From positions 874,599 to 938,598 of the forward strand of contig CAVSGI010000009.1 in NCBI GenBank assembly GCA_963727445.1: DNA of 64,000 bases, read 5' to 3'. The notes beneath the pieces were generated by a model that worked only from the letters and a program-made list of their open reading frames with translations, made no database searches and was not told the DNA's origin. Every line of letters starts with the position of its first letter. The stretch's first letter is position 1. This document shows positions 40,158 to 64,000 of this stretch, in pieces. Source of the DNA: an uncultured delta proteobacterium. GTDB lineage: Bacteria; Myxococcota_A; Polyangia; Polyangiales; B10-G4. The translations under genes were made by a program, and so were the position numbers.

Positions 40158-41834
<1,677 letters not shown>

Positions 41835-41982
41835 GCCGCCCCTCTCCGACCCGGCGGGGACGTCGTTCACTTTTGACGCAACCCAGGCGAGCGCGATCGA
41901 ACGCGGGTCGTTGCCGGATCGCGCGACCCGCGCTGGTCAAAAGTGCACTGCGTCCCCTTCCAACGTCCTTGGGGGGGACGCA

Positions 41983-42161
41983 CGGATTCGGAGTTCGGAT
42001 TCGGAGTTCGGATTCGGAGTTCGGATTCGGATTCGGAGTTCGGAGTTCGGATTCGGAGTTCGGATTCGGTGTCGGATTCGGATTCGGATTCGGAGTTCGG
42101 TGTCGGATTCGGATTCGGAGTCGGGGGCGGGTTCGGATTCGGAGTTCGGAGTTCGGATTCG
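41983..42161. repeat. Short tandem repeat of mixed CGGATT / CGGAGTT / CGGTGT units
   Basis: Directly visible. Confidence 0.95.
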
Positions 42162-42166
42162 TGATC

Positions 42167-42229
42167 GGACCCTGAGGTGCGTGGTGTTGCTCATGGGGGG
42201 TATGAGCAACACCACGCACCTCAGGGTCC
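42167..42229 (+). promoter_or_regulatory. Perfect 28-bp inverted repeat whose right arm is the first 28 nt of the four-helix-bundle ORF
   Basis: GGACCCTGAGGTGCGTGGTGTTGCTCAT-GGGGGGT-ATGAGCAACACCACGCACCTCAGGGTCC. The regulatory role is inferred. Confidence 0.8.
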
Positions 42230-42540
42230 TTCGGGATACGATCCAAATCATTCGGGAGCTTCGGCCGGTCATCGGGCGGCTGAAGAAGCGGAACGCGAAG
42301 CTAGCGGATCAGCTGGAGCGGGCCGCGACGAGCAGCGCGTTGAACCAGGGCGAAGGGAATGCGATGCGGGGCGGCAATCGCCGCAAGCACTTCGACATCG
42401 CGCTGGGCTCGACCCAGGAAGTGAGGGTCGCCCTCGAGACGGCGGCGGCCCTCGGGTACATCCCCGACGAGATCGTCACCCGATTCGATCCACGACTCGA
42501 CTCGATCTGCGCGCGGCTGTATCGGCTCGCAGGGTATTGA
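42202..42540 (+). CDS. Four-helix-bundle protein (23S rRNA IVP-like family)
   Basis: 112 aa; LADQLERAATS-ALN-GEG...HFDIALGS-QE...LGY pattern. Confidence 0.85.
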   Translation: MSNTTHLRVLRDTIQIIRELRPVIGRLKKRNAKLADQLERAATSSALNQGEGNAMRGGNRRKHFDIALGSTQEVRVALETAAALGYIPDEIVTRFDPRLDSICARLYRLAGY

Positions 42541-42903
42541 GCGGCTCGCGGCGAGAAGCATCGGAGATTCGCGCGCGCGATCACTTTCCCCGGGGAAAGG
42601 ATGCGCGCCTGAGCTCTCCCTCCGCCGTTCGGTCCGCGCTCAAAGACTGCCGCTGAGACTCTGGTCGATCCACTTTGTCACCCCTCTGGGGGGACAAGCC
42701 TCTGCGCGTTGCACTGCGAAGCCATTCGCTGCGCGACGAATGAATCGTGACGAACCGAAGCGATCGAACTCCTTCGTCACAATCTCTGCCGTCGTGCCAC
42801 TCACCCCACGGGACGTCCGTATGCGTAACCGCAGTTGCGAACGAGTTGGGGGGGGGGTGTACGTTCATTGCACAGCTCTTGTGAGCAGAATAGGGGGGCC
42901 GCG

Positions 42904-48991: not shown

Positions 48992-49438
<447 letters not shown>

Positions 49439-49586
49439 GCCGCCCCTCTCCGACCCGGCGGGGACGTCGTTCACTTTTGACGCAACCCAGGCGAGCGCGA
49501 TCGAACGCGGGTCGTTGCCGGATCGCGCGACCCGGGCTGGTCAAAAGTGCACTGCGTCCCCTTCCAACGTCCTTGGGGGGGACGCA

Positions 49587-49744
49587 CGGATTCGGAGGTC
49601 GGATTCGGAGGTCGGATTCGGAGGTCGGATTCGGATTCGGATTCGGTGTCGGATTCGGATTCGGATTCGGAGTTCGGTGTCGGATTCGGATTCGGAGTCG
49701 GGGGCGGGGGCGGATTCGGAGTTCGGATTCGGAGTTCGGATTCG
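49587..49744. repeat. Short tandem repeat of CGGATT / CGGAGGT / CGGAGTT units, copy 2
   Basis: Directly visible. Confidence 0.95.
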
Positions 49745-49784
49745 TGATCGGACCCTGAGGTGCGTGGTGTTGCTCATGGGGGGT

Positions 49785-50123
49785 ATGAGCAACACCACGC
49801 ACCTCAGGGTCCTTCGGGATACGATCCAAATCATTCGTGAGCTTCGGCCGGTCATCGGGCGGCTGAAGAAGCGGAACGCGAAGCTGGCGGATCAGCTGGA
49901 GCGGGCCGCGACGAGCAGCGCGTTGAACCAGGGCGAAGGGAATGCGATGCGGGGCGGCAATCGCCGCAAGCACTTCGACATCGCGCTGGGCTCGACCCAG
50001 GAAGTGAGGGTCGCCCTCGAGACGGCGGCGGCCCTCGGGTACATCCCCGACGAGATCGTCACCCGATTCGATCCACGACTCGACTCGATCTGCGCGCGGC
50101 TGTATCGGCTCGCGGGGTATTGA
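49785..50123 (+). CDS. Four-helix-bundle protein, copy 2 (hairpin at 49750-49812)
   Basis: Protein identical to 42202-42540. Confidence 0.85.
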   Translation: MSNTTHLRVLRDTIQIIRELRPVIGRLKKRNAKLADQLERAATSSALNQGEGNAMRGGNRRKHFDIALGSTQEVRVALETAAALGYIPDEIVTRFDPRLDSICARLYRLAGY

Positions 50124-50238
50124 GCGGGGCTCGCGAATGGCGTCCGCCGGCGGCCCGGCGGCGGATCGCCGATTCGGCGGCGCAACTGCCGACAATCACT
50201 GACCGTGATGCGGGCACAGATGTTGCCGAGCCGCGTGC

Positions 50239-51703
50239 GTGCAGCGCCTCTCGTCGACGTCGCGGAAGTATGCCCGCCGCGACCGCGAGCGCTCCGCTCT
50301 GCACCAGACGGTCCGTGAGCACCTCGAGACGTTCCTGGCGGAGACCCGGACCACGGACCGGGACGGCGTCGGTGTTCCGGCTTTCGTCGAGGCTGAGCTC
50401 CGGCGCTTCCTCGAATGCGGCGTCCTCGCTCATGGCTTCGCGCGCTTTCGCTGCGACGCGTGCGGCACGGACCGCCTCGTGGCGTTTAGCTGCAAGGGTC
50501 GCGGTTTCTGCCCTTCCTGCGGCGGGCGCCGCATGACCGCGCAGGCGGCGCACCTCGTCGACGAGGTCCTACCACCGGTCCGCATGCGGCAATGGGTGCT
50601 CAGCCTCCCCTTCGAGCTCCGCTATCGTCTCGCCTTCGACCACGAGCTCAGTCGCGCCGTCCTCGCCGTCTTCACGCGGGCGATCTTCGGCTTCCTCCGG
50701 GACCGCGCGAAGAGGCGCGGGCATCCAGGAGGTCGCGCAGGCAGCGTCACGGTCATCCAGCGCTTCGGCGGCGCGCTCAATCTCAATCCGCACTTCCACA
50801 CGCTCGTCCCGGATGGGGTGTTCCTCGAGGCGCCGGATGGATTCGGTCCGCTTTCACCGCCTCCCGCCCCCGACTGACGAGGAGGTCGCGGCCCTGCTCA
50901 CCACCCTCGTCGCGCGTCTGCGGCGCCTGTTGATCCGCCGCGGCGTCTGGCGGGAGGGCGACGACGGAACGGACTACGTCGATCCCACCCTTCACGAGCG
51001 CCTCGGCGCCGCCGCCATCCAGCAGGTCGCGCTCACCGGTCCGCGGGCACTTCTCTCCACGCGCCGCATCCGGACCGCTCCGCCCAAGACGTCACCGAAA
51101 GTCCTCGGCCGCCGCCGCGCCCGCCAGGACGGATTCGACCTGCACGCCAACACCGCCGTGCGCGGCAAGAACCGCCCGCGACTCGAGCGCATCTGCCGCT
51201 ACCTGCTCCGGCCCCCCGTGTCGGAGTCGCGCATCGAGCGGCACGGCGATCGTGTGCTGCTCACTCTGAAGACCCCCTACGATGACGGCACCACGCACCT
51301 GAGCTTCGAGCCCACCGAGCTCCTCGGGCGCCTCGCCGCCCTCGTCCCCCGCCCTCAGAAGAATCTCCTCCTCTACCACGGCGTCTTCGCGGCCAACGCG
51401 AAGCTGCGCAAGCAGGTCGTCGCGTACGGGCGTCCCTCCGAGCCAGGCAAGGGCCCGAAGCACAGCACGTCCAAACGCAAGCGTCACAACCCGAGCTGGG
51501 CAGAGCTCATGCGTCGCGGCCTCGACATCGACGCGCTCGAATGCCCGAAGTGCCACTCCCGCATGCGCTTCGTCGCCTCAATCCTGAGACCGGCCACCAT
51601 CCGCCGCATCCTCGAGAGCCTCGACCTGCCGGCAGAGCCAGTCGTGCCCGCCCCGGCGCGCGCACCGCCCAACGACGACGACCTCTTCTTCGACGTCGCC
51701 TGA
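50239..51703 (+). CDS. IS91/ISCR-family HUH transposase, frameshifted near 50842
   Basis: Zn-binding GFARFRC..C...SCKGRGFCPSCG, HUH motif NPHFH, LERICRYLLRPP, CPKC and PARAPP. Confidence 0.9.
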
Positions 51704-51790
51704 GCGGCTCCGTTCGAGTCGTCGACGTCGCGATCCGTCCGCCGCTCGACCCTCGCCTGAAGATCGGGTCATCATGCCTTTCATGCCCCG

Positions 51791-51915
51791 TCCGGTTTCC
51801 AGCCTCCACGGAAGCCAACCCCTTCACCGGACGCCCGAGTTTCGCAGTAGGTATGATCTGTCGACTCGCGCCTCCGGCGGGAGTGGCGGGAGGCCGTTTG
51901 TGATGGCTATCCACA
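51791..51915 (+). repeat. 125-bp ori-like unit, copy 1 (uninterrupted)
   Basis: Identical to 54496-54613 + 56025-56031 and to 58984-59101 + 60513-60519. Confidence 0.95.
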
Positions 51916-52145
51916 ACCGACGACCTTCGGGTTATGAGGTGAAAAAATGGGTCGATCGGGTGGGTGGTGGAAGTGCTTGGGATTGCTTGATTTGCGAAAT
52001 GATAACTAGGAGTTGGGCTGCATCGCCGTGTCACGGGACGTCACGCGAGATCACGTCATCGCCCGAAGTCATGTCAACCACATGTCACCCCTGACCCCTG
52101 GGATGTGGGATTCAGGCATTCCAGTGGGGTCCCAGCGCGGACGAA

Positions 52146-53312
52146 CTATGAACCTTGGGGGATGCGTTGCGGAAGATGAGTGCCGACGAGCTCACCCCAG
52201 CAGTACATTTCCTCGTCGGTGGTGAGGGCACAGGAGGACTCGTCGGAACAATCGAGGTCGATAACTGGTGGCAGACCGTCCACGAGTTGCGGTGTGATTT
52301 CACATGAACGCCCGCCGCATGCATCTCGCCGCACCGGGGGGCTGGAGACTTGTCCGTACGTGTTCCTGCCCCAGCAGTAGACGTTCCCGCGTTCTCCCAA
52401 GGCACAACTATGCTCGGCTCCCGCGCAGACGGCGCCTACAGGTTCCGCAACTGTAGGCGTGACCAGCTCGACCGAGAAAGCAGTCGTCTCCCCATTTCCT
52501 AGCTGCCCCGAGTTGTTGGCTCCCCAGCACAGGATCCCCGTGGATCTTGCAACGCACACATGGCGCTGACCAATTGCCATGTCTTCGATCCCATTGAGCG
52601 CCATGACAGATTCTGTTCGATACAGAGTCTCTTCACCAACGCACGCAGGTTGGCCTTGGTCGTTCCAGGAACACGACAGTCGTGGTCCCAACTCGATGCC
52701 AGTACCAGGCGCAGCTTCAGGCAGTCGGAACGGCGAGTCGCCAATGCACCGAACGCCGACGGTGCTTCCTCCGCAGGAGAGTTGTTCTGACAAAGAGATG
52801 TGGGCGACACCGAACAAACCTTCAACCTGGACCGGCGTTGTAGCGCATGAGAACTCGCTGCCGTCAACAAGGCAGCGCTCGCTCGCGCGGTCACCAATTT
52901 GACTCCAACGATCGCTACCCCAGCACGAGACGACGCCGTCGTCGAACTGGCTGCAGGTGTGAAACCTGCCCGCAGCCATCTGGCTGGCAATGTCAACGAG
53001 CGGAACAGGCACGAGCATCGGTGACGCGACTCGATCTCCCTGGCCAAGTTGCCCGGCCCAGCTGTTTCCCCAACAAAGGACACGCCCCTCGCCGTTGAGC
53101 ATGCAGGAGTGCTCCGCCCCCATCGAAATCGAGGCAGTGAGTTCCAATGGGAGGGGCTGCGAAGGCTGCGAACAACCGAGAGCAAGAAACAACATGGGTA
53201 CGAGGACGGGCGCCTTGGAGCTGCCCGGCCAGCCTCCCCTAGGTGCAGGAGTGGTCGCCGCGTGGTCCGCACGCGAAGGGCTAAAGTAGGAAGGACGCGA
53301 AGCGAAGATCAT
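52146..53312 (-). CDS. RCC1-repeat lipoprotein (cargo 1); alternative start at 53195
   Basis: CWGNSWAGQLG and CWGANNSGQLG repeats; ALGC lipobox. Confidence 0.8.
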   Translation of the reverse strand: MIFASRPSYFSPSRADHAATTPAPRGGWPGSSKAPVLVPMLFLALGCSQPSQPLPLELTASISMGAEHSCMLNGEGRVLCWGNSWAGQLGQGDRVASPMLVPVPLVDIASQMAAGRFHTCSQFDDGVVSCWGSDRWSQIGDRASERCLVDGSEFSCATTPVQVEGLFGVAHISLSEQLSCGGSTVGVRCIGDSPFRLPEAAPGTGIELGPRLSCSWNDQGQPACVGEETLYRTESVMALNGIEDMAIGQRHVCVARSTGILCWGANNSGQLGNGETTAFSVELVTPTVAEPVGAVCAGAEHSCALGERGNVYCWGRNTYGQVSSPPVRRDACGGRSCEITPQLVDGLPPVIDLDCSDESSCALTTDEEMYCWGELVGTHLPQRIPQGS

Positions 53313-54145
53313 CGGCACGCGCTTAGCACGTCAGCGAGCGAAGCGTCCAAACCGGCTCGAGTGCCGGCTCCGCTGACCGTCGCTTCGGTAACCTGTGCCT
53401 GCCAGATGAGCTGCCGTGGTTCAGTTAGGCCCGATAGCAGGAAGAGTCCCTGCTGGCCTGATGGGGGAAGTCCAGTCTGAGGTACGAACGCAGTGGCGGG
53501 CGGGTCCCAGCGTGGATCGATGTATGGTGCACCACGTGCATCCGACCAGTACGCCGCAGCAGTGAACCCCTCAACGAGAACACCATCTGGCACGTCAAAA
53601 CCATGGTCGTCAATTACTTGGAGCGTGGCGCTCTCTCTTCCGAACGCCATGTGGACATCAAGGAATGACGGCTCGCGGCCCACGTGGGGATCGGCCGTGG
53701 TCAGAGAGCCTGGTGTGACCTCGGCAAGCACGCAGGCGTCCACCTCACGAGCAGCGCTCTCAAGACTATCGGGAATGAGCGGTCCCACGTACTCGGGATC
53801 GACGCTGACGATGATCCGTTCACGGTAAAACGTCGTGGGGCACCCTTCGTCCTGAGACTCAATGGCTACGGCCCGGTATTCAGATTCATAGCCCGGTGCG
53901 GTTATGACCAGCTCGTAGGTCCCGGCGGGCGGCATGTCGAACTCACAGTAAACATCTGCGTCGATCCGACAGGGCCCGAGCTCTACAGAGGCTTGGGCGC
54001 CCACTTCGTCTGCTCTGCGGCCATCCTCCATCGTTGCAATACCCGCGAACACGTAGCCACAGTAGCCCCCGTCGCCAGGCTCACAGGCAAGCGCTCCGAG
54101 GAGAAACAACAACGCGCTATGGCTCCTAGCGCCGATGTCGATCAT
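53309..54145 (-). CDS. Hypothetical lipoprotein (cargo 1)
   Basis: Signal ending ALAC; start inferred. Confidence 0.6.
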   Translation of the reverse strand: MIDIGARSHSALLFLLGALACEPGDGGYCGYVFAGIATMEDGRRADEVGAQASVELGPCRIDADVYCEFDMPPAGTYELVITAPGYESEYRAVAIESQDEGCPTTFYRERIIVSVDPEYVGPLIPDSLESAAREVDACVLAEVTPGSLTTADPHVGREPSFLDVHMAFGRESATLQVIDDHGFDVPDGVLVEGFTAAAYWSDARGAPYIDPRWDPPATAFVPQTGLPPSGQQGLFLLSGLTEPRQLIWQAQVTEATVSGAGTRAGLDASLADVLSACR

Positions 54146-54493
54146 CCCGAACAGCCTGACGCGGAGAAACTCCACCTCGGGTACGGCACAACGAGTACAG
54201 GCTCTCATTTCCTCGGTGACCAATGGGTTCATCTTCTTCGCGAAGCACGCAGTGCGACCCCTCCTCGCAGTCTTGAGCAGCGCGACACGAGAGATGTCTA
54301 AGTAGCACGCAGTGTCCCAGCGCGCACGCCTCCTCCCCCTCGCAATCTCCGTCCGAACGGCAAGGTGCACACACTCCATCGATGCATGCGCGCGCGCCAC
54401 CGCAGGGATACGCAGAACCACAGTGGACTTGCATCGTCTCGTTGAAGAGACGTCCCTGCCACTCCCCCTCTTCGCGCGGGCGAAGCTCCGGCG
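54126..54493 (-). pseudogene. Cys-rich protein fragment with its 5' part cut off by the repeat unit
   Basis: CIDGVCAPCRSDGDC...CALGHC frame runs into the unit at 54494. Confidence 0.65.
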
Positions 54494-54613
54494 GCTCCGG
54501 TTTCCAGCCTCCACGGAAGCCAACCCCTTCACCGGACGCCCGAGTTTCGCAGTAGGTATGATCTGTCGACTCGCGCCTCCGGCGGGAGTGGCGGGAGGCC
54601 GTTTGTGATGGCT
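54494..54613 (+). repeat. Ori-like unit, copy 2 (interrupted by IS1111; last 7 nt at 56025-56031)
   Basis: Identity with 51791-51908. Confidence 0.95.
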
Positions 54614-54638
54614 TCTGTGAAGCGGCCACCCCGGTCAA

Positions 54639-54900
54639 CAGGTTTGTCTGATTTTCGTTCTACGTCGTTGCACGTCTCCTTCGCCTCGGCTCGGGTTCGT
54701 CGTTTCGCTCATACGTGACGGGTTGTTCAGCCTTCTGTTCGCGCTCGACTGGGGCGGCATCGAGGCCGCGGCGCAGGGTGGGATTCGGTGGTGGTCGGCG
54801 CCATCTATCCATCGGCGTTCGACAGCAGCCAGCCAGCACATCGCGCTCGACCACCATAATCGGTTCCCTTCACGAAGAGCGGGTCATCGTCGGTTGCGGG
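54639..54900 (-). ncRNA. Putative bridge/seek RNA of IS1111 copy 1; ends approximate
   Basis: Stem enclosing segments that match both sides of the target site, plus a separate donor-matching segment. Confidence 0.7.
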
Positions 54901-55932
54901 TCAGGCTGCAGCAGCCTCCTCACGGCTCGCTGTCGCCTCGAAGCGCGTCCCGTCTCGCCACATCGCGTACAAGATCCCCGCGAGCTTGCGCGCCAGCGCC
55001 ACCGCCGCGATCCGCTTGCCGCGGCGTGCGGCGATGCGCTCCGTCCAGTCGCGTAGCGCCTTCGTCTCCGGTCGTTTGTGACGCAAGATCCCCCAGGCCG
55101 CTTCGACGAGCAGCGACCTGAGACGGCGATTGCCGGTCTTCGTGATGTGGCCCCGCATCCGTTTTTCGCCAGAGCTCAGCTCGCGGGGCACCAGGCCGAG
55201 GTAGGCGCGCACTTGTGAGGCGTTGTGGAAGCGACCGATCTGGTCGACCACGGCGACGAAGGTCACCGCCGTCACCGGCCCGATGCTCGGCACGGTGCAC
55301 AGGCGTTCGACGGTCTCGTCGCCCTTGGCGAGCTCGGCGAGGCGCTTGTCGGCGTCGCGGATCTGCATGGTGAGCTGCTCGAGCATCGTGAGCAGCGGCG
55401 CGACCTCGAGCGCCAGGTGGGCGGGCAGTGACAGCTCCTCGATGCGCGCCGCGAAGGTCGCCGCTCCGCCGCTTCGTGGCGACAAGCCCTCGCGCCGCAC
55501 AAGCGCTCGGGTGAGCGAGATGTACTTCGTTCGCGTGCGCACCAGCGCATCACGCACCGCGACCTGCGCTCGCCGATGACGGGCCGCGTCCGAGGCGCGG
55601 TGCGCTGGGCGGTACGCGCCGAGCCGGCAGGCGTCGCAGAGCGCCCGCGCATCGCGCCGGTCCGTCTTCACCTTGCGGCTTCGCGTGGCATACATCGGCG
55701 CGAAGTTCGGGTCCGCCACGATCACCTCATGGCCCAGCTCCTCGAGCCACCGCGCCACCCACTCGCTGTCCGTCGACGCCTCCATCAGGATCTTCGCCCG
55801 GGCGCGGTCCGCGAACACCTTCGCCAGCGCATCGCGCGTCGTCGCCACGCGCCGCTCCCGCAGCTCTCCCTCGCTCGTCTGGATGCAGACCTGACTTGTC
55901 TTCTTGTGAACATCGATGCCAATGTGTTCCAC
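54901..55932 (-). CDS. IS110-family recombinase/transposase
   Basis: IGIDVHK, MEA, KTDRRDA (DEDD) and YLGLVP...SSG. Confidence 0.95.
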   Translation of the reverse strand: MEHIGIDVHKKTSQVCIQTSEGELRERRVATTRDALAKVFADRARAKILMEASTDSEWVARWLEELGHEVIVADPNFAPMYATRSRKVKTDRRDARALCDACRLGAYRPAHRASDAARHRRAQVAVRDALVRTRTKYISLTRALVRREGLSPRSGGAATFAARIEELSLPAHLALEVAPLLTMLEQLTMQIRDADKRLAELAKGDETVERLCTVPSIGPVTAVTFVAVVDQIGRFHNASQVRAYLGLVPRELSSGEKRMRGHITKTGNRRLRSLLVEAAWGILRHKRPETKALRDWTERIAARRGKRIAAVALARKLAGILYAMWRDGTRFEATASREEAAAA

Positions 55933-56031
55933 GGCTGGCCTCCACTCTGCGGCTCTTGACCGCGTTTACGGTTGTGGGGCTACGGCTACCACGTCAGTGG
56001 CGGCCAGCCGCTTACATCCCATCTATCCACA

Positions 56032-56676
56032 CCAATACCCCATTCGCTTGACGTGCCAGTCCAACATCTCCAGCACGCGCACCTCCATCTCTGCTGCAGG
56101 TGCGCCATGCTTCAACGCCTCAACTACGCTGGCGTGGGGTGTTTCGGGGCGAGCGACTGAGTAGGGCCGGCGCCCGAACTTCATGCACGCGAGATCGACC
56201 GCCAGCTGCCCTAAGGCCAGACCCTCTTCGCCTGCCAAGTTGATAATGGCGGCACGTCGGCACCGCTTCTCATCCGCAATTAGCTCACCGAGTGGACTAG
56301 AGAACGAAGCAGGAAGGAGCGTGGAAGCTGCACACCAGGTCAGACCCAACGTTGAATAGGTCGAGACCTGCATCTGCTTGTGTCCCCACCCGGCATGTTG
56401 GGCACCGCTTTGAAACGCGTCGATGAACAGAGTTGTCTCAGTCTCGAGCATCGCCCACTGACGCAGCTCGCGCCAGGCCGTCTCCGGATGTTCTTTAAGC
56501 TGAAGGAGCGCCGAGGTGATGAACCGTGCGCTCGCCCAATGCCTGAACGCCATCGCGGCTGTTACCAGACCGCCCTCGCTCTCAGCCGCATATACCTCGG
56601 TCTCGAACTCGAGGAGGTCCAGGCTCGTCGCCACGCGTTGGACGTGGCCCAATTGGCGCGCGATGCTTCGGGTCAT
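56032..56676 (-). pseudogene. Hypothetical protein, 3'-truncated at the ori end (cargo 2)
   Basis: The ORF terminates only inside the repeat/IS junction. Confidence 0.6.
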
Positions 56677-56873
56677 CAAGGGGTCCTGTTCCGTCGTCGT
56701 TGAGCTTCAACATTGCGCTGAGCTCTTGCTACTTCTGCCCGGAACTTTCTGGTGACCTCTGTGCGGGAGTAGCGGCCGGTAGGGCCACGATTCATCTCGT
56801 AGACACGCGTCCGGACGGCACTGCTGGTGTTGTAATTCGATAACTCGATCACGTAAGCCGTAAGAGTATGGGT
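56676..56873 (-). pseudogene. C-terminal gene fragment coupled (TGATG) to the downstream gene
   Basis: Frame ...THTLTAYVIELSNYNTSSAVRTRVYE...RRNRTP* has no start within the cargo. Confidence 0.45.
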
Positions 56874-56890
56874 GCTCCGGTTTCCAGCCT
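56874..56890 (+). repeat. 17-bp stub of the unit's left end
   Basis: GCTCCGGTTTCCAGCCT matches 54494-54510 and 58982-58998. Confidence 0.8.
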
Positions 56891-57189
56891 AACGGCAACG
56901 ACACCGTCTCACCGGACCCCGCTGTTTCCGAGAAGATACGTTGTGTAATCTCGGGGTCAGGCCGGAGGCCGTTCATGGTGACTACGAGCTAGCGGGTCCC
57001 GTTGTATTTGTATATCGGCGTGCGATGAAGTTTCCGACGTCTCGGATGACCCAACCGGCGTCCCGTCAACGGCGTTGGGAACGGCGCAAGACGCGACAAT
57101 TCGGCACATGCTGACTCTAGTGGTGGGTTGCGGGGAACGAGGATCGCCGCCAAACTTCGATGGCACGCATCTTGGGATCTTCGCGACAC

Positions 57190-57762
57190 ATGGACAGGAT
57201 TCAGGTCACCGCACTCCTCTGGCTTCTCCTCAGCGCCTGCAGCATGGAGTCGCATTCGGCCGATACCGGAACTACACGCGCCGACACCGGAGCTATACGC
57301 ATGGACGGAGCACTCGACGCGCCGTCGCCGACCGATGCGCCGACCGATGCGCCCGAAGGCTCGTTGACGTGCGACGCCAGTCTGTACCACCGCCCCTGCG
57401 GTGAGCCCAACACGTCGTATCACCAACGCTGTGCCCAGGAGTGCGTCTGTCCCTACTTGCTGTTCGAGGTGTGCGACGTCGACGAGGTCGGCTCCTGCGG
57501 CCGGACGCTCAGCTTCTGTGAGGCCGTCGAGGTCTTCACGTTCTGCGCCGGCCCTCGAGACGGCGCGTGCGACTGGCGCATCGAGTTTCGTAGTGGGCGA
57601 TACGAGTGGGCGCACTCGGATGTGGTCGAGAGCGGCGAGTACACCTGCGACGGCACGACCGTCACGAGCGACATGTACGAAGGCTCCTGGGATGGCGTTT
57701 GGCAGAGCCTCGTCTGGGACGGTGTCCGCTATCAGGCGGTCCCGCCGGAGTGCACGCCATGA
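57190..57762 (+). CDS. Cys-rich lipoprotein (cargo 2)
   Basis: Lipobox LSAC. Confidence 0.7.
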   Translation: MDRIQVTALLWLLLSACSMESHSADTGTTRADTGAIRMDGALDAPSPTDAPTDAPEGSLTCDASLYHRPCGEPNTSYHQRCAQECVCPYLLFEVCDVDEVGSCGRTLSFCEAVEVFTFCAGPRDGACDWRIEFRSGRYEWAHSDVVESGEYTCDGTTVTSDMYEGSWDGVWQSLVWDGVRYQAVPPECTP

Positions 57763-58397
57763 GCCAGCAGTCAGTCGACGCCCTCGCGCGCGCATCTGTG
57801 TTCCTCACCTTCGTCGCATTGCTTGCAACGCCCATGGGATGCGCCGGATCTCACGACGCGCGCCCGGACGGTCGCATCACCCTCGACAGCAGCATGGATG
57901 GGCCCTCGATGGACTCGGCGCCGGGCGACAGCGCCACCGACGGCCCCTCGATGGACTCCGCGCCGCGCGACACGTCAATGGATGGACCCGACGCCGGATC
58001 GCTGCCGACGCTCGAGGAGATGCAAGCCTGCGCGGTCGACAATGATTGCGTCGCAACATTCAGCCGCTGTTGCGAGTGTGGCGCGGACGTCGATACGCTC
58101 ATCGGCATCAACATGGCATACGTGGACGCCTATCGCGCGGACCTCTGTGCCCCATACCTCTTTGGCTGCGATGGGTGCGCCGGCCCCGTGGCCGGGGTGT
58201 TCGAACTTTGGGCTGCCTGTGTGGAGGGAACGTGCGAAGCCGGCATCTTGGAGTGTGCTGATGCGTATGACTGCATGCCGAGAGGCGCGTGCATCCTTCG
58301 AGATGCGTGGTCTTCGCGTGTCTGTTCGCTCTTCTGCTCGACCGATGACGAGTGTCGAGACAGCCAGCGGTGCGTTGGGTGGGCATGCACACCCTGA
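57759..58397 (+). CDS. Cys-rich lipoprotein (cargo 2)
   Basis: ATGA overlap; PMGC lipobox; duplicated DGPSMDSAP linker. Confidence 0.7.
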   Translation: MSQQSVDALARASVFLTFVALLATPMGCAGSHDARPDGRITLDSSMDGPSMDSAPGDSATDGPSMDSAPRDTSMDGPDAGSLPTLEEMQACAVDNDCVATFSRCCECGADVDTLIGINMAYVDAYRADLCAPYLFGCDGCAGPVAGVFELWAACVEGTCEAGILECADAYDCMPRGACILRDAWSSRVCSLFCSTDDECRDSQRCVGWACTP

Positions 58398-58446
58398 TGA
58401 AGCAGCCGCTCTTGATCCCGGGCGCGCGGCTTCGCTAGAGTGGGAG

Positions 58447-58981
58447 TGACCTGCCCTTGAAATTTCGGACCATCTCAAAGTTGTAGAATCGCCTCTTCGG
58501 GACCCCGGAGAGCACATGAGAAAGAGTCGATTTACCGAAGAGCAGAAAGTGAAGATGCTGCGCGAAGCGGACAAGACTTCGGTCGCCGTGGTCGCGAAGA
58601 AGCACGGCATCAGCACGGAGACCATCTACAAGTGGCGCCGAAATTTCGGCGGCATGGACGTCGCGGACGCGAAGCGGCTCAAGAAGCTCGAGCTGGAGAA
58701 CGCGCGGCTGAAGAAGCTCCTCGCCGAGCGCTCGCTCGAGGTCGAGGTGATGAAAGAAATCAACGCAAAAAAATGGTGAGCGTGCCGGCACGCCGCCAGC
58801 AGGTGGCGTACGCCCGCTTGCGGGGCGTTTCATGCCGGCGCGCTTGCGGCCTCGTGCACGTAGCGCGGTCGGCGCTCCGCTACGAGTCGAAGATGGACAA
58901 CAAAGACAGAGCGGTGGTCGCGCGGCTGTGCGAGCTCGCAGCGCGCTACCCGCGCTGGGGCTACCGCCGCATCCGCGTGAT
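58447..58981 (+). mobile_element. Truncated IS3-family element (left IR, orfA, start of orfB)
   Basis: Left end TGACCTGCCC...; A7 slippery site at 58767-58773; orfB (RYPRWGYRRI) is cut by the repeat unit. Confidence 0.88.
58516..58779 (+). CDS. IS3-family transposase OrfA
   Basis: MRKSRFTEEQ...TIYKWR...LELENARLKKLLAE...KKW. Confidence 0.92.
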   Translation: MRKSRFTEEQKVKMLREADKTSVAVVAKKHGISTETIYKWRRNFGGMDVADAKRLKKLELENARLKKLLAERSLEVEVMKEINAKKW

Positions 58982-59101
58982 GCTCCGGTTTCCAGCCTCC
59001 ACGGAAGCCAACCCCTTCACCGGACGCCCGAGTTTCGCAGTAGGTATGATCTGTCGACTCGCGCCTCCGGCGGGAGTGGCGGGAGGCCGTTTGTGATGGC
59101 T
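58982..59101 (+). repeat. Ori-like unit, copy 3 (interrupted by IS1111; last 7 nt at 60513-60519)
   Basis: Identity with the other copies. Confidence 0.95.
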
Positions 59102-60512
59102 TCTGTGAAGCGGCCACCCCGGTCAACAGGTTTGTCTGATTTTCGTTCTACGTCGTTGCACGTCTCCTTCGCCTCGGCTCGGGTTCGTCGTTTCGCTCAT
59201 ACGTGACGGGTTGTTCAGCCTTCTGTTCGCGCTCGACTGGGGCGGCATCGAGGCCGCGGCGCAGGGTGGGATTCGGTGGTGGTCGGCGCCATCTATCCAT
59301 CGGCGTTCGACAGCAGCCAGCCAGCACATCGCGCTCGACCACCATAATCGGTTCCCTTCACGAAGAGCGGGTCATCGTCGGTTGCGGGTCAGGCTGCAGC
59401 AGCCTCCTCACGGCTCGCTGTCGCCTCGAAGCGCGTCCCGTCTCGCCACATCGCGTACAAGATCCCCGCGAGCTTGCGCGCCAGCGCCACCGCCGCGATC
59501 CGCTTGCCGCGGCGTGCGGCGATGCGCTCCGTCCAGTCGCGTAGCGCCTTCGTCTCCGGTCGTTTGTGACGCAAGATCCCCCAGGCCGCTTCGACGAGCA
59601 GCGACCTGAGACGGCGATTGCCGGTCTTCGTGATGTGGCCCCGCATCCGTTTTTCGCCAGAGCTCAGCTCGCGGGGCACCAGGCCGAGGTAGGCGCGCAC
59701 TTGTGAGGCGTTGTGGAAGCGACCGATTTGGTCGACCACGGCGACGAAGGTCACCGCCGTCACCGGCCCGATGCTCGGCACGGTGCACAGGCGTTCGACG
59801 GTCTCGTCGCCCTTGGCGAACTCGGCGAGGCGCTTGTCGGCGTCGCGGATCTGCATGGTGAGCTGCTCGAGCATCGTGAGCAGCGGCGCGACCTCGAGCG
59901 CCAGGTGGGCGGGCAGTGACAGCTCCTCGATGCGCGCCGCGAAGGTCGCCGCTCCGCCGCTTCGTGGCGACAAGCCCTCGCGCCGCACAAGCGCTCGGGT
60001 GAGCGAGATGTACTTCGTTCGCGTGCGCACCAGCGCATCACGCACCGCGACCTGCGCTCGCCGATGACGGGCCGCGTCCGAGGCGCGGTGCGCTGGGCGG
60101 TACGCGCCGAGCCGGCAGGCGTCGCAGAGCGCCCGCGCATCGCGCCGGTCCGTCTTCACCTTGCGGCTTCGCGTGGCATACATCGGCGCGAAGTTCGGGT
60201 CCGCCACGATCACCTCATGGCCCAGCTCCTCGAGCCACCGCGCCACCCACTCGCTGTCCGTCGACGCCTCCATCAGGATCTTCGCCCGGGCGCGGTCCGC
60301 GAACACCTTCGCCAGCGCATCGCGCGTCGTCGCCACGCGCCGCTCCCGCAGCTCTCCCTCGCTCGTCTGGATGCAGACCTGACTTGTCTTCTTGTGAACA
60401 TCGATGCCAATGTGTTCCACGGCTGGCCTCCACTCTGCGGCTCTTGACCGCGTTTACGGTTGTGGGGCTACGGCTACCACGTCAGTGGCGGCCAGCCGCT
60501 TACATCCCATCT
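59100..60512 (-). mobile_element. IS110-family (IS1111 group) element, copy 2
   Basis: Offset 4488 from copy 1; two substitutions noticed (59728, 59820). Confidence 0.92.
59389..60420 (-). CDS. IS110-family recombinase/transposase, copy 2
   Basis: Same as 54901-55932 except one L-to-F change. Confidence 0.95.
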   Translation of the reverse strand: MEHIGIDVHKKTSQVCIQTSEGELRERRVATTRDALAKVFADRARAKILMEASTDSEWVARWLEELGHEVIVADPNFAPMYATRSRKVKTDRRDARALCDACRLGAYRPAHRASDAARHRRAQVAVRDALVRTRTKYISLTRALVRREGLSPRSGGAATFAARIEELSLPAHLALEVAPLLTMLEQLTMQIRDADKRLAEFAKGDETVERLCTVPSIGPVTAVTFVAVVDQIGRFHNASQVRAYLGLVPRELSSGEKRMRGHITKTGNRRLRSLLVEAAWGILRHKRPETKALRDWTERIAARRGKRIAAVALARKLAGILYAMWRDGTRFEATASREEAAAA

Positions 60513-60603
60513 ATCCACATGAGTCGGTGGCAACCTCGGTCTCCTGCCGCTCATGCCAAGGAACGCAGTACAGCAACCGCGGGGTCGGTGTAAGGGTGAC
60601 GCC

Positions 60604-61473
60604 ATGACTGCTCGGATCCTCTGTTCGATACTGCTGGGCCTATTGCTCGTTTCCTGTCCGGCCGATGATCCCGGCACGGACTCCGCCCAGCCAGATGCGG
60701 CAGCAGACACGGGTCCCACGGAGTGCCCGCCGCACCTCCCGTTTCGCTTCGGCGACTCGTGCTGCCAGTTCGAAGATGGGTCGGCCTGCGAGCAGATCTG
60801 GTGTGGAGTCGAGGAACCGTGGATACCATGGGACAACCGGACCCCCCTGTGGTGGTCGGCCGACGAGCCGGCGAGCTGCGCTGACACGCTCTCGCACTCT
60901 CCGCCGCAGCCATACGATGATTGCTACACGGGGGCCGACCCCAAACTCTGCGGCTTGCCGCACTCCGGCGCGCTCGAATGCATCGGGTACTGGGCGATTA
61001 CCTGTGAGTCGAGCATCGACTGCCCAGTGGACATGGGGTGCACCTATCACTCAACCGAGGGCCTGATCGAAACGCCAGAAGAGGTGCCGCTCGGCGACGC
61101 AATCTGGGGACATTGCGTGAAGCGGTGCACTACGGTCGGTAGCTCCGACGAGTGCATCCGCTGTGATCAGGTCTGTCAGGACGGGGGCTTCTGCGACGCT
61201 CAAGGGCTGCTGCCAGGACACACGTGCGTGGCCGATTGCGAGTGTTGGGATGTGGTTGACCCAGCCACCGGCAGCGCCGTCTGCAACGGCGGTCGCTGCT
61301 ATCCGGGCCGGGGTCGCCCGCGCGTGGGCCTCTGCGGTGAAGGCCACGACTGTGGCTGCGTCGGTGGCACATGCGAGGAGCATCCCGAGGGCGGATGCTG
61401 CAGGCTCCCCGACGGCACGATCGCTGAACCGGAGTCAGAAGCGTGCGGCGGCCCAGATGCAGGGGTGCCGTAA
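60604..61473 (+). CDS. Cys-rich lipoprotein (cargo 3)
   Basis: Lipobox LVSC; many Cys residues. Confidence 0.72.
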   Translation: MTARILCSILLGLLLVSCPADDPGTDSAQPDAAADTGPTECPPHLPFRFGDSCCQFEDGSACEQIWCGVEEPWIPWDNRTPLWWSADEPASCADTLSHSPPQPYDDCYTGADPKLCGLPHSGALECIGYWAITCESSIDCPVDMGCTYHSTEGLIETPEEVPLGDAIWGHCVKRCTTVGSSDECIRCDQVCQDGGFCDAQGLLPGHTCVADCECWDVVDPATGSAVCNGGRCYPGRGRPRVGLCGEGHDCGCVGGTCEEHPEGGCCRLPDGTIAEPESEACGGPDAGVP

Positions 61474-61570
61474 GAACGGCCGGCACCCGGGTGGTCCGCA
61501 AGGCGCGAGCTTACCATTGGCTCTACCCGGCGGGCACCACGGTCCGATGGACGTCGAGATCGAGCGTGCC

Positions 61571-61636
61571 GAGGTTGCGCTGGAGCGCCACGCCCGAGCA
61601 CCGCCGTGAGAGATCCCTCTTCACGGCGCGCGCTCG
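61571..61636 (+). repeat. ~65-bp imperfect direct repeat with hairpin, copy 1
   Basis: Similar to 63773-63836; stem CGCCGTGA...TCACGGCG. Confidence 0.85.
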
Positions 61637-61645
61637 ATCAGCTCG

Positions 61646-62521
61646 TCAGCTCCCCGCATCGCCAGCGCACGCGCCCGGGTGAGCGATACTGACGCGAGCG
61701 CGTGCTGCCCAACACTCGTGCGCATACGTCAGACCGTCGCATCCACAGACCGGATCCAGCAGGCCCTCGCAAGACGGATTGTCGAGGGCGCAATATCCGA
61801 GTCCGCCGCATCCCTCTACCAGGTCGCAGAAGAGGTCGCCGCAGTGGGCGTCGGTTCGGCACGGCCAGAAACTCCCGGCCGGCGGCAGCACGCAGCAGTC
61901 GGGGCAATCGGCGGGGAGGCACAGGTTGGTGATCAAGCAACAGGACCCACCGGAGTCGCAATCACCGTCGTCTCCGCAGGTGCGGGGCCACCCTGGTTCG
62001 GGGCTGCTGCCGCAGGCACCCCGAGCACCCGGGCGTACGCCGGCGTGGGCCGCGTCGCAGAACCCTGGATAGGTGTTTCCATCACAGGCACAGTACTCGG
62101 GTGAGCAGCCGGGATCCGGTCGCCGCTCGCATGTTCCGGGGCCAAGGCAGTACTCCCCAGCGCAGTACTCTTCGGGGTCGCAGTCGGCGTTCGACGCACA
62201 AGCGTCTGGCCCTTCGGCCCGGCACGATTCTGGTGTCGCGGGATCGAAGCACTCCCCGGTGAGGTAGCAGCATTCTTCACCGGGGAGGCACGGACTGCCC
62301 CCACATCGAAGGGGCATCCTTGGGACTGAGGTGTCCGCAGGCGTGGCATCCGGCACGAGAGGATCTAGGAACGTGTCGGGCCCGACATCCGCATCCGCGT
62401 CCATCGGAGGAGTGGCATCGGCGTCGGAAGGACCGATGTCTGGGTCCATGTGGCTCGAACCGCATCCTCCGATCGTCACCAGCGCGACAACGAGGAAGGG
62501 TGTGATGATTGCCCTACGCAA
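61646..62521 (-). CDS. Cys-rich lipoprotein with Kazal-like modules
   Basis: PVCGCDGLTYAHEC...HPGAC and CACDGNTY; IGGC lipobox. Confidence 0.75.
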   Translation of the reverse strand: MRRAIITPFLVVALVTIGGCGSSHMDPDIGPSDADATPPMDADADVGPDTFLDPLVPDATPADTSVPRMPLRCGGSPCLPGEECCYLTGECFDPATPESCRAEGPDACASNADCDPEEYCAGEYCLGPGTCERRPDPGCSPEYCACDGNTYPGFCDAAHAGVRPGARGACGSSPEPGWPRTCGDDGDCDSGGSCCLITNLCLPADCPDCCVLPPAGSFWPCRTDAHCGDLFCDLVEGCGGLGYCALDNPSCEGLLDPVCGCDGLTYAHECWAARARVSIAHPGACAGDAGS

Positions 62522-63047
62522 CCTGCCAGATACCCTTTAGGCGAGACGCCGTGCCGCTGTCCGCGGGTAGGGTACACCACAGGTTATTCCAACCGTAGGA
62601 TGCCTTGTCCACGTTTACGAACTCCAAATATCCGGATCCGGTCCAAGACGCCGGAAACGACGCACAACCACCAGAAGTTGAACAGAGGAACTTGGTGGAC
62701 TCGTTGTATGTGACACTGCCGCTGTAGTTCGAGCTGTACTGGTTGCAGTACAAGCTGTGCTGCATCAGGGACCCGGCATTGTTGTCCGTTGCCCACACGG
62801 TGATGTCGTCGGTGGAACTGGACGACACGTCGTTCTGTTCCGGTAGTCCGCACGAAATCTGGGCGCCTGCGGACGCGGAGCCTTCGTAGTCGATCCATCC
62901 ATAGTTGGCCGGCACCATCGCGTCATCCGTCCATTGACACGCATTCGACGGTGGAAACATCGTTTGCTCGGCCGCAGCCGGGCTGTTTGTTGCCAGCAAG
63001 CCGGCAAGGAAGCCGACGGCGATAGACACTAGAGCAACTCTCTTCAT
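62514..63047 (-). CDS. Secreted hypothetical protein
   Basis: GGGAGG RBS; signal peptide ending AAA. Confidence 0.7.
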   Translation of the reverse strand: MKRVALVSIAVGFLAGLLATNSPAAAEQTMFPPSNACQWTDDAMVPANYGWIDYEGSASAGAQISCGLPEQNDVSSSSTDDITVWATDNNAGSLMQHSLYCNQYSSNYSGSVTYNESTKFLCSTSGGCASFPASWTGSGYLEFVNVDKASYGWNNLWCTLPADSGTASRLKGIWQVA

Positions 63048-63086
63048 GGGTCCTCCCTTTCTCAGTCTGGTCGTTGGGCCTGTAGG

Positions 63087-63712
63087 TTAGAAATCCGGAA
63101 GACGTTCGTCCCCCGTTATCAGGAAGTGCGTCGTGGTGAAGGCGCCTCCCTCCTCTGTTCGAAGCTGGACGCCCTGCTTTCCAAAGATGGGGGTTCGGGC
63201 CTCGTCCACGATCAGCTGCTGGATCGCGTCTGGCGTCTCGTGCGTGTACTGAACTCGACAGAACGCCGGGCCGCATGCGATGTCGCGTACGGCGATCCCT
63301 GCAGGCTCATGCGACGTAGAGTATTCGTGTATCGCCCACTCTACCTCCCTCTCATACCTGGCGTTACGCGGCGCTGCCGGGAGGATGTCGTCCAGGTACT
63401 CGAAGCGTCGAGCGACGCGCTCCTCGTCGTAGCGAATCCTTCCTCCAGCGTCAGTCGCTGAGGTTCAGGCGGCCGTCGGGTCTCAACGTCCTGCCTCGTC
63501 GTCTGAGGGAAGAGGCCCGCGTCACTGGGCCGAAGCGCAGATGGCGGGCCAGCGGCTGGCATCACGGCAGTGCCGCGCCAAGAAGGGGACGGCGCGGCCA
63601 TTTCGGCCGACTCAGTCGGGTTCTCCTGCAGGAGACGAGCTGTCAGGCCTCCCGCAAAGGCACCCGCGAGCGCTCCGACGACGCCGACGACCAGCTTGCT
63701 CCCCCCGTGCAT
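63087..63712 (-). CDS. Hypothetical protein with N-terminal TM helix, frameshifted near 63430
   Basis: GGAG RBS; the second frame continues DEERVARRFEYL...IACGPAFCRV...LPDF*. Confidence 0.55.
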
Positions 63713-63772
63713 ATGCTCCTTATGCCAGGACTTCGACCGCTACGGAATACGGGATATTACGTACGCGCTGTT

Positions 63773-63836
63773 GAGGTTGCGATGGCGCGCCAGGCCCGAG
63801 GGCCGCCGTGAGATCCCCCTTCACGGCGTGCGCTCG
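63773..63836 (+). repeat. ~65-bp imperfect direct repeat with hairpin, copy 2
   Basis: Similar to 61571-61636. Confidence 0.85.
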
Positions 63837-64000
63837 CATATGGTGAATGAGTAGCGACGTCCCCCCAGGTTAACCCCCTGCAGTCCGTCGCCCCGCATGA
63901 CGGCATGGATCTCGAAACCCTCCTTCGCCCGTCGAAGCGGAAGTAGAAGTGAACGGCAACGCTCTGTCTGACACTCTCTGAGAGTCACGTCTCGGGCTGA

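What the first reader, a model, noticed from the sequence alone, without database searches (positions are those of the whole stretch)
50134..61473. HUH (IS91/ISCR-like) transposase heading an array of captured DNA segments separated by a 125-bp ori-like repeat: candidate gene-capture system
Seen: a 125-bp unit (51791-51915) follows the transposase. Once the IS1111 insertions are removed it recurs identically at 54496-56031 and 58984-60519, with a stub at 56874. Between units lie unrelated, visibly lower-GC segments (51916-54493, 56032-58981, 60520 onward). Their edges cut genes: a Cys-rich ORF at 54493, an ORF at 56032 and IS3 orfB at 58981. The flanks of units 2 and 3 do not rejoin into a recognisable gene, and there is no target duplication, so the unit is not a simple MITE insertion. 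Established: in ISCR/IS91 elements oriIS lies downstream of the transposase, and from memory its end resembles GTTTG-N6-CTAT, as here; these elements mobilise adjacent DNA by rolling-circle replication. Inference: one enzyme plus a short non-autonomous ori unit builds an integron-like or CRISPR-like array of kilobase fragments. I do not know of a description of this architecture.
Basis: partly seen in the sequence, partly recalled or inferred. Interest (0 to 1): 0.92.

Follow-up and report, generated by a model that had tools for sequence, protein, structure and literature searches.

The report
IS91 transposon trailing captured-DNA array
A rolling-circle (IS91-type) jumping gene is followed by repeated copies of its own 124-base end piece with unrelated DNA between them, a pattern that recurs in other bacteria and looks like a by-product of how this transposon copies itself rather than a purpose-built gene-capture device.

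Summary
The observation largely holds. Window 50131-51914 is an IS91-family element. Its transposase carries one extra A at 50841; two intact 497-aa copies lie elsewhere in the genome. Its last 124 bp, the oriIS-side end, recur downstream on the same strand at 54496, 56876 (a divergent full copy, not a stub) and 58984. Copies 2 and 3 are each split by a 1411-bp IS110-family element.

The unit has 49 hits in this genome. Solo copies share one sharp left boundary. Transposase-headed, same-strand, downstream-only arrays occur at three loci here and in two genomes of another genus (22 of 22 units).

Segments between units are not simple insertion flanks. An IS3 is cut at unit 3. Elsewhere, segments are edge-to-edge copies of genes whose source loci carry no unit (0 of 6).

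Best reading: non-autonomous ori-end derivatives, as known for IS801, plus DNA joined at unit ends by rolling-circle transposition, giving head-to-tail arrays. I found no evidence for an integron- or CRISPR-like function. This is a new variant of a known kind, of moderate interest.

The parts
50131..51914 (+). IS91-family insertion sequence (about 1784 bp), the head of the array
   Evidence: Three copies aligned (C9, C10, C24). The left end is read as TCGCGAATGGCG.. by comparison with C24 and with the empty paralogue at window ~42550; it is uncertain by a few bases. The right end is ..CTATCCAC.
50239..51703 (+). Transposase gene, broken by one extra A at 50841 (frame 1 to frame 2)
   Evidence: Pfam Zn_Tnp_IS91 and Y2_Tnp. 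The single-base insertion shows against the intact 497-aa copies C10:590038-591498 and C24:9510-10955. An HFH motif and CxxC pairs are present in the intact copy.
51791..51914 (+). Unit 1: the element's own 124-bp oriIS-side end module. It has a conserved 5' domain, a variable hairpin, and the end GCCGTTTGTGATGGCTATCCAC.
   Evidence: The hairpin is kept with different sequence in different subfamilies.
51915..54495 (.). Segment 1: an RCC1-repeat protein gene (52146-53318, minus) and a putative lipoprotein gene (53309-54145, minus)
   Evidence: Pfam RCC1 families; translation. Single-copy in the genome apart from 137 bp. No homologue in 40 relatives, except one weak hit for the lipoprotein.
54496..54613 (+). 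Unit 2, positions 1-118; the last 7 bp are at 56025-56031
   Evidence: 100% identical to unit 1.
54614..56024 (-). IS110-family element, copy 1 (transposase 54901-55932 on the minus strand), inserted at GATGGCT^ATCCACA with CT on both sides
   Evidence: Pfam DEDD_Tnp_IS110 and Transposase_20; junctions read. There are 8 full copies in the genome and 7 sit at unit position 118/119.
56032..56875 (.). Segment 2a, with a 218-aa ORF (56023-56679, minus) whose stop lies in the unit remainder
   Evidence: No Pfam family. No homologue in 40 relatives.
56876..56989 (+).
   Evidence: nhmmer profile positions 1-123, E 3e-12; sequence read. A 299-nt soil-metagenome contig carries a related copy, with 11 differences over 113 nt.
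56990..58983 (.). Segment 2b: a 268-aa ORF (56989-57795, minus) and the left part of an IS3-family element (OrfA 58450-58776, plus) cut at the unit edge
   Evidence: Pfam HTH_Tnp_1, E 5.6e-21. No rve domain was found in the ORFs tested right of the unit, and no rve match of the genome-wide search lies in the window.
58984..59101 (+). Unit 3, positions 1-118; the last 7 bp are at 60513-60519
   Evidence: 100% identical to unit 1.
59102..60512 (-). IS110-family element, copy 2
   Evidence: 99.86% identical to copy 1.
60520..64000 (.). Segment 3, running to the contig end; ORFs without family apart from a weak Kazal match
   Evidence: No further unit lies on this contig. The far end of the array is not assembled.

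Best explanation
What it is: window 50131-51914 is an IS91-family rolling-circle insertion sequence. Its last 124 bp are the oriIS-side end module: a conserved 5' domain, a subterminal hairpin, and the end GCCGTT(T/C)(G/A)T-N6-CTAYCNNC.

Where solo units come from (inferred by analogy): solo copies are non-autonomous derivatives made when rolling-circle transfer, started at the ori end, stops early at an internal ter-like site. That site is the sharp boundary ^TCCGG. This was shown experimentally for IS801. The intact transposases on C10 and C24 can act on them in trans; the window's own copy is frameshifted.

How the array forms (inferred): the array downstream of the transposase grows because the end of a resident unit is itself the preferred joining site. 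It ends in ..GC, and the base before a solo unit's left end is C in 33 of 37 cases. Each event adds a [segment][unit] module, so units pile up head to tail, on one strand, only on the ori side.

What is shown for the segments: they are copies of DNA from elsewhere.

What is open: whether a segment is copied by read-through from a transient unit insertion at the source, or is joined in trans at pseudo-sites.

Function: the array is a by-product and record of transposition, not a dedicated capture device.

Separately, an IS110-family element inserts site-specifically into the unit's end.
For: Family: Pfam domains, HFH motif, and an end motif shared with 54%-identical elements in other genomes.

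Solo units:
- There are 49 profile hits, of which 41 begin at profile position 1-2 (4 are the full elements' own units). All 37 solo copies start at the same base.
- The flank has C at -1 in 33 of 37 and G at -2 in 23 of 37.
- Known precedent: IS801 right-end fragments of 229, 360 and 679 nt made up 26% of events, and IS801 also moved 290-1431 nt of upstream DNA (PMC3189936, passages).

Read-through in this element: the C10 copy carries 87 bp of the C9 copy's upstream flank.

Arrays:
- Units downstream of, and on the same strand as, a transposase number 3 on C9, 2 on C24, 2 on C5, 7 in G200 and 8 in G009. That is 22 of 22.
- The units are 100% identical within the G200 and G009 arrays.

Captured segments:
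- For 4 of 4 solo units whose left flank has a paralogue, homology stops exactly at the unit, and the paralogue's continuation occurs nowhere else in the genome.
- C12:26833-28445 and C11:17492-19266 are bounded edge to edge by a unit's right end and the next unit's left end.
- In G200, a 534-bp segment is a 98% copy of an internal piece of a gene conserved across the genus. A 532-bp segment is a 99.8% copy of the relaxase region in the same array.
- The flanks of the G200 unit at q6567 lie apart in 4 of the 5 relatives searched; the fifth had no hit for the right flank.
- In the window, IS3 is cut at unit 3.

A two-base overlap between a de novo end and its target is reported for IS91 one-ended transposition and for Helraiser (PMC4778049, passage).
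Against: - None of the 6 traceable source loci carries a unit next to the copied segment. Plain read-through from a resident solo unit therefore does not explain them without an extra assumption: a lost insertion allele, a donor in another strain, or joining in trans.
- The canonical IS91 target tetranucleotide (GTTC/CTTG) next to oriIS is not seen. The bias is on the other flank.
- For the window's own array only one junction (unit 3) is shown to be non-contiguous. Unit 2's flanks can be joined into an open frame.
- Other islands (C12, C21, C11, C20) hold units on both strands with no full-length transposase match nearby (only a 34-residue fragment at C20:113278-113379, ~4 kb from the last C20 unit). 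They are heavily rearranged.
- Folding of the top strand is no better than shuffles (z -1.09). The bottom strand gives z -2.6.
- No transposition, circle or nicking was observed.
Confidence: 0.6

Rival explanations
1. Solo units are ordinary miniature insertions (premature-termination products) that hopped locally into native DNA. The non-contiguous flanks come from later deletions, or from homologous recombination between the many identical units and the IS110 copies inside them.
For: - The islands are full of IS elements and rearrangements.
- The 1538-bp repeats are good recombination substrates.
- Removing unit 2 plus its IS leaves an open frame.
- For IS801, the retrospective analysis concluded that most genomic fragments arose by reorganisation (PMC3189936 abstract).
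Against: - Recombination does not duplicate DNA, yet the segments are extra copies of loci that remain intact elsewhere.
- Two segments are bounded exactly by unit ends on both sides.
- 22 of 22 units are downstream and on the same strand in five arrays.
- No pair of flanks was contiguous in any of 5 relatives; 4 of the 5 had hits for both flanks.
Confidence: 0.18
2. One reading: a dedicated capture platform. The transposase excises [cargo+unit] circles from ori to ori and reinserts them like integron cassettes, and the array has a use for the host.
For: - The architecture recurs in two genera, with fixed unit ends and variable cargo.
- Segment 1 holds two apparently whole genes.
- For ISCR1, variable DNA, often resistance genes, abuts the oriIS side, and the oriIS region carries outward promoters (PMC6218425, passages).
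Against: - Traceable cargo is internal gene fragments and broken mobile-element pieces.
- Gene orientation relative to the units is not consistent.
- No promoter-like site lies in or after unit 1.
- The window's transposase is frameshifted.
- No module was seen at two array positions, other than large duplications.
Confidence: 0.12
3. Assembly artefact: near-identical 1.5-kb repeats were mis-joined, creating a false array.
For: The genome is a 27-contig assembly, 85.6% complete. Several arrays sit at contig ends. I could not lay the source reads, because no run holds more than 0.05 of the sampled words.
Against: Each unit has unique flanks on both sides. The same architecture appears in independent assemblies G200 and G009, and in metagenome contigs.
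Confidence: 0.03

Closest known systems
IS801 / IS91 / IS1294 (IS91 family) one-ended transposition and miniature right-end derivatives
   Same: - HUH transposase with a zinc-binding N-terminus.
- Distinct ori and ter ends, with the ori end downstream of the gene.
- No target duplication.
- Right-end fragments with a fixed internal left boundary.
- Co-mobilised upstream DNA (PMC3189936 and PMC13181058, passages).
   Different: - The solo derivative here is very short (124 bp) and abundant: 41 copies begin at profile position 1-2 (37 solo), out of 49 hits.
- It forms directional arrays downstream of master copies.
- The GTTC/CTTG target next to ori is not seen.
- The source loci of captured DNA carry no unit.
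ISCR1 in complex class 1 integrons
   Same: Variable DNA directly abuts the oriIS end downstream of the transposase gene (PMC6218425, passages).
   Different: ISCR1 has one variable region per copy and no chain of solo oriIS units. Its cargo is whole resistance genes driven by outward promoters. Here the cargo is mostly fragments, and no promoter-like site was found.
Helitrons and their non-autonomous derivatives (eukaryotes)
   Same: - Rolling-circle HUH transposition.
- Non-autonomous copies made only of ends.
- Capture of gene fragments by missed or de novo termination.
- A two-base overlap at de novo ends (PMC4778049, passages).
- The unit starts with TC and ends with a hairpin plus CTAY, which recalls the Helitron 5'-TC and CTRR-3' ends.
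   Different: These are bacterial elements with no helicase domain. The transferred strand and polarity are taken from IS91 work and were not tested here. Captured pieces lie between complete unit copies rather than inside one element.
Integron cassette arrays
   Same: A repeated ~100-bp structured site separates unrelated DNA segments downstream of one recombinase gene.
   Different: - No tyrosine-recombinase (integrase) Pfam family was found in the ORFs scanned.
- Segments are 0.8-4.7 kb.
- Segments are often gene fragments and show no common orientation.
IS110/IS1111-family elements that target repeated sequences (recalled: the IS1111-attC group, and IS4321/IS5075 in Tn21 ends)
   Same: The inserted 1411-bp element has the two family domains. 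It sits at one fixed position of the unit in 7 of 8 copies. Its guide-like segments covary with the target variant.
   Different: The target here is the oriIS end of an IS91-family element. I have not seen that described, and I ran no literature search for it.

Membership tests
IS91 family (HUH rolling-circle IS) | Transposase with the IS91 zinc-binding domain and the Y2_Tnp catalytic domain | tested here: met
   PF14319 E 7.6e-18; PF04986 E 7.3e-15.
IS91 family (HUH rolling-circle IS) | HUH motif and catalytic tyrosine(s) | tested here: inconclusive
   HFH is present at residues 195-197 of the frame printed from the intact C10 copy, and a RYLLRPP stretch is also seen. The tyrosines were not aligned to a reference, so one versus two catalytic Tyr is not settled.
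IS91 family (HUH rolling-circle IS) | Two unlike ends: a hairpin-bearing ori end downstream of the gene with a conserved terminal motif, and a GC-rich hairpin at the ter end | tested here: met
   Right-end motif shared with five related elements. Hairpins are kept across subfamilies. A GC-rich palindrome sits at the left end. Compared with descriptions in PMC13181058 and PMC5737581.
IS91 family (HUH rolling-circle IS) | No target-site duplication | tested here: met
   No consistent direct repeat flanks the units.
IS91 family (HUH rolling-circle IS) | Target tetranucleotide GTTC/CTTG adjacent to the ori end | tested here: not met
   Right flanks show no such tetranucleotide. The bias is C (33 of 37) and GC (23 of 37) before the left end, and the unit itself ends in ..CNGC or ..CNAC. 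The specificity differs from the four studied members.
IS91 family (HUH rolling-circle IS) | One-ended transposition carrying DNA from the ter side | tested here: met
   The C10 copy carries 87 bp of the C9 copy's upstream flank.
IS91 family (HUH rolling-circle IS) | Transposition through single-strand circles | not testable with these tools
   No usable reads: share 0.05 in two metagenomes.
Integron | IntI tyrosine recombinase next to the array | tested here: not met
   No tyrosine-recombinase (integrase) family among 16 + 18 + 36 ORFs scanned against Pfam. Only ORFs of 120 aa or more, plus those I listed, were scanned.
MITE (simple miniature insertion) | Terminal inverted repeats, a target duplication, and flanks contiguous at empty sites | tested here: not met
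   No inverted repeats and no duplication. Flanks were not contiguous in 4 of 4 paralogue tests, nor in any of 5 relatives (4 had hits for both flanks) for a G200 unit.
IS110/IS1111 family (the element inside units 2 and 3) | DEDD transposase with the Transposase_20 domain, and site-specific insertion at a short core | tested here: met
   PF01548 and PF02371. 7 of 8 copies sit at unit position 118/119 with CT at both junctions.

The most novel reading that the evidence does not exclude
The end of a resident oriIS unit acts as a site-specific acceptor, in effect an attI for an HUH enzyme. The transposase cuts pseudo-sites in DNA that never held a unit and joins those single strands to a unit strand. 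Each event lays down a captured segment plus a fresh copy of the unit. The result is an ordered, one-directional record of captured DNA next to the master copy. This would also offer a direct mechanism for how foreign genes come to abut oriIS in ISCR elements.
Probability: 0.22. Interest if true: 0.8.

Novelty: new variant of a known kind. Interest (0 to 1): 0.55.

Why it matters
How IS91/ISCR elements come to have foreign DNA directly next to their oriIS end is still argued. One-ended transposition explains only DNA on the terIS side.

A subfamily that leaves chains of solo ori units, each with a traceable captured fragment, gives natural junctions from which the joining rules can be read. 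Three such rules emerged here: GC before the unit, TC at its start, and source loci without a unit.

It also gives a simple bench system, consisting of an intact transposase, a 124-bp unit and a resident unit as target.

If the acceptor-site reading is right, rolling-circle transposons in bacteria shuffle gene fragments much as Helitrons do in eukaryotes.

Tried and rejected
- Rfam scan of 49500-62000 at E up to 1: three chance-level matches, none on a unit.
- Promoter and terminator scan of 51650-52150: none.
- Unit DNA in 40 relatives: 0 of 40.
- Degenerate 5'-domain pattern in genome contigs: 3 matches in unrelated organisms, about the number expected by chance.
- A longer pattern in metagenome contigs: 0 matches.
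- Earlier findings of this scan near the place: none.
- Proteins of segments 1 and 2a in 40 relatives: one weak hit only. No empty site could be found for the window's own units.
- Sequencing runs: two metagenomes hold 0.05 of the words. Laying them gave short pieces of related IS elements, one related unit with unlike flanks, and near-identical pieces of 60691-61417. No contig bridged a unit junction and no usable circle joint appeared.
- RNAalifold on 15 units: it paired the 5' end with the region before the terminal motif, with little covariation. The variable hairpin aligned poorly, so I folded each copy on its own instead.
- Test for a short direct repeat flanking the units, done by eye output: matches of 3-4 bases in only a few copies, so rejected.
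- A conserved start of captured segments: TC in 2 of 2 in G200 but 0 of 4 in this genome, so left open.
- Survey of more distant relatives: 51 of the 75 metagenome loci were entered, and 38 of those had at least 900 bp downstream.
  - 11 showed a same-strand repeat of the 400 bp after the transposase match. In 5 of these the repeat belongs to a further transposase copy in direct order; in 6 there is no second transposase.
  - 2 showed short opposite-strand repeats.
  - Several of these loci are clearly the same element from different samples, so the counts are not independent. I did not resolve their ends.
- Supplementary files of the papers were closed. Figure-level end sequences of IS91, IS801 and ISCR1 were not seen.

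Full report
**What is in the window**

The window is G000:C9:874599-938598, the end of a contig in a 27-contig, 9.47-Mb assembly.

ORFs 50239-50877 and 50813-51703 carry the IS91 zinc-binding domain and the Y2_Tnp domain. Two other copies, on C10 and C24, have open frames of 497 and 499 aa. The window copy has 388. The difference is one extra A at 50841. The intact copy has an HFH motif and three CxxC pairs.

Aligning the three copies places the element at about 50131-51914.

The unit recurs 100% identical over 118 bp at 54496 and 58984. Each copy is followed by a 1411-bp IS110-family element and then the last 7 bp.

A profile built from 18 copies finds a fourth unit at 56876-56989. All four units lie on the transposase strand.

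GC is 0.68-0.73 in the IS and 0.58-0.64 between units.

**What the unit is**

In this genome the profile finds 49 hits. Each of the four transposase loci has a unit about 87 bp after the stop codon, so the unit is the element's own right end.

The nearest transposases in other genomes are 54% identical and belong to genus g9 of the same order. They end in the same motif..GCGTTTGTAGTNACTATCNGC, and share an internal stretch with the unit.

This matches published descriptions, read as passages only:
- The ori end lies downstream of the gene.
- It carries subterminal palindromes and a conserved ~17-bp end (PMC13181058; PMC5737581).

The variable middle of the unit folds as a hairpin in every subfamily although the sequence differs. 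Alignment-based covariation was weak.

**Solo units**

The 37 solo copies that reach the 5' end all begin at the same base (TCCGGTTTCC). The base before it is C in 33 of 37, and GC precedes in 23 of 37. The four full elements have G there.

A fixed internal left boundary with a constant right end is what Bardaji et al. found for IS801. Right-end fragments of 229, 360 and 679 nt made up 26% of transposition events. IS801 copies also carried 290-1431 nt of upstream DNA (PMC3189936, passages).

Here the C10 copy carries 87 bp of the C9 copy's upstream flank. That is the same kind of read-through.

**Arrays**

Units lie downstream of, and on the same strand as, a transposase as follows:

| Locus | Units downstream, same strand |
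|---|---|
| C9 (this window) | 3 |
| C24 | 2 |
| C5 | 2 (partial) |
| C10 | 0 |
| G200, contig C4 | 7, over 17 kb; three are 100% identical to the element's own 103-bp unit |
| G009, contig C12 | 8, over 30 kb; two are 100% identical to its own 82-bp unit |

The total is 22 of 22 downstream and on the same strand. None lies upstream on those contigs, apart from one opposite-strand hit 225 kb away in G200.

Against a tidy picture, the islands on C12, C21, C11 and C20 hold units on both strands. They have no full-length transposase match nearby (only a 34-residue fragment at C20:113278-113379) and are full of other IS elements.

In more distant metagenomic relatives, 51 of 75 loci were entered and 38 of those had enough downstream DNA:
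- 11 had same-strand repeats of the post-transposase region. In 5 of these the repeat belongs to a further transposase copy in direct order.
- 2 had short opposite-strand repeats.
- These loci are not independent, and I did not resolve their ends.

**Are the segments captured?**

In the window:
- Unit 3 cuts an IS3-family element. OrfA is present, but no rve domain was found in the ORFs tested to the right, and no rve match of the genome-wide search lies in the window.
- Unit 2 is undecided. Removing exactly 54494-56031 leaves a 619-codon open frame. The part next to the unit looks non-coding, and no homologue exists in 40 relatives.
- The window's segments are single-copy in this genome, so their origin cannot be traced.

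Elsewhere the evidence is clear:
- For 4 of 4 solo units whose left flank has a paralogue, homology stops at the unit's first base, and the paralogue's continuation occurs nowhere else in the genome.
- C12:26833-28445 is a copy (81-94% identical) of C20:607926-608809. It runs from the first base after one unit to the last base before the next.
- C11:17492-19266 is bounded the same way.
- In G200, a 534-bp segment abutting a unit is a 98% copy of an internal piece of a 458-codon gene conserved across the genus.
- Also in G200, a 532-bp segment is a 99.8% copy of DNA 10 kb away in the same array. It starts at a variant unit's left boundary and ends inside a relaxase gene.
- The two flanks of the G200 unit at q6567 lie in different places in 4 of the 5 relatives searched; the fifth had no hit for the right flank.

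**Mechanism**

Shown:
- The family and the ends.
- The sharp solo boundary and the flank bias.
- The directional arrays.
- The copied, edge-bounded segments.

Inferred:
- Solo units arise by early termination.
- The end of a resident unit, which itself ends in ..GC, is the favoured joining site. [Segment][unit] modules therefore stack head to tail on the ori side.
- A two-base overlap between a de novo end and its target is reported for IS91 one-ended transposition and for Helraiser (PMC4778049, passage). That fits the GC seen on both sides.

Open:
- None of the 6 source loci carries a unit.
- Either the unit-bearing allele was lost or lay in another strain, or segments are cut at pseudo-sites and joined in trans to a unit strand.
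- The second option is the more novel reading. I give it about 0.2.

**Comparison and verdict**

The element is a member of the IS91 family by protein and by end structure. It does not show the GTTC/CTTG target of the studied members.

The behaviour resembles three known systems:
- IS801 miniature derivatives.
- The variable DNA at the oriIS side of ISCR1 (PMC6218425, passages).
- Helitron fragment capture.

It is not an integron: no integrase was found in the ORFs scanned. Nothing points to a CRISPR-like role.

My four literature searches did not turn up chains of solo ori units with captured DNA. Subscription papers and supplements were not seen.

I rate it a new variant of a known kind, with interest 0.55.

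Noticed in passing
window 54614-56024 and 59102-60512; C21:2472-3893 and 6988-8409: The IS110-family element comes in two variants that are 91% identical, each sitting in its own variant of the unit end (GTGATGGCT|ATCCA versus ATGGTTACT|ATCCG). In the non-coding part downstream of its transposase, variant A reads CTATCCA and AGCCAGCAC, and variant B reads CTATCCG and AGTAAACAT. These match the right flank in sense and the left flank as reverse complement, with one mismatch each. This is guide/target covariation of the kind expected for a bridge RNA.
   Followed up: partly
window 50841: A single extra A breaks the window's transposase. The copies on C10 (590038-591498) and C24 (9510-10955) are intact.
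   Followed up: yes
unit positions ~58-67; C12:30633-30766, C5:177427-177559, C20:108789, C11:7653-10114: The decamer TAGGTATGAT (or its variant) is duplicated in three unit copies. Other insertion sequences sit at this point, including a 2.46-kb element identical to contig C22 and an element starting GAACCAAGC. This is a second insertion hot spot in the unit.
   Followed up: no
L039:6146-8157 (G200:C4, inside the array): A MobA/VirD2-type relaxase and a NikA-like protein lie directly beside a variant unit 5' domain. This 2.19-kb module is multi-copy across genus g9, and its homology starts exactly at the unit boundary.
   Followed up: partly
window 48992-50135 and 41388-42550; C12:56261-56894; C21:11034-11654: The gene left of the IS has paralogues next to other unit islands. 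It has a TCGGAT-type repeat region and resembles a 23S rRNA-intervening-sequence protein. A palindromic motif, GATCA(C/G)TTTCCCCGGGGAAAG, follows several copies.
   Followed up: no
window 60691-61417: Short contigs from a soil and an estuary metagenome match this stretch with 0-1 differences. The rest of the region is matched only at lower identity.
   Followed up: no
window 1-24000: Five Ser/Thr protein-kinase domain ORFs, a lysyl oxidase domain and an AMP-binding enzyme: ordinary chromosome to the left of the array.
   Followed up: no
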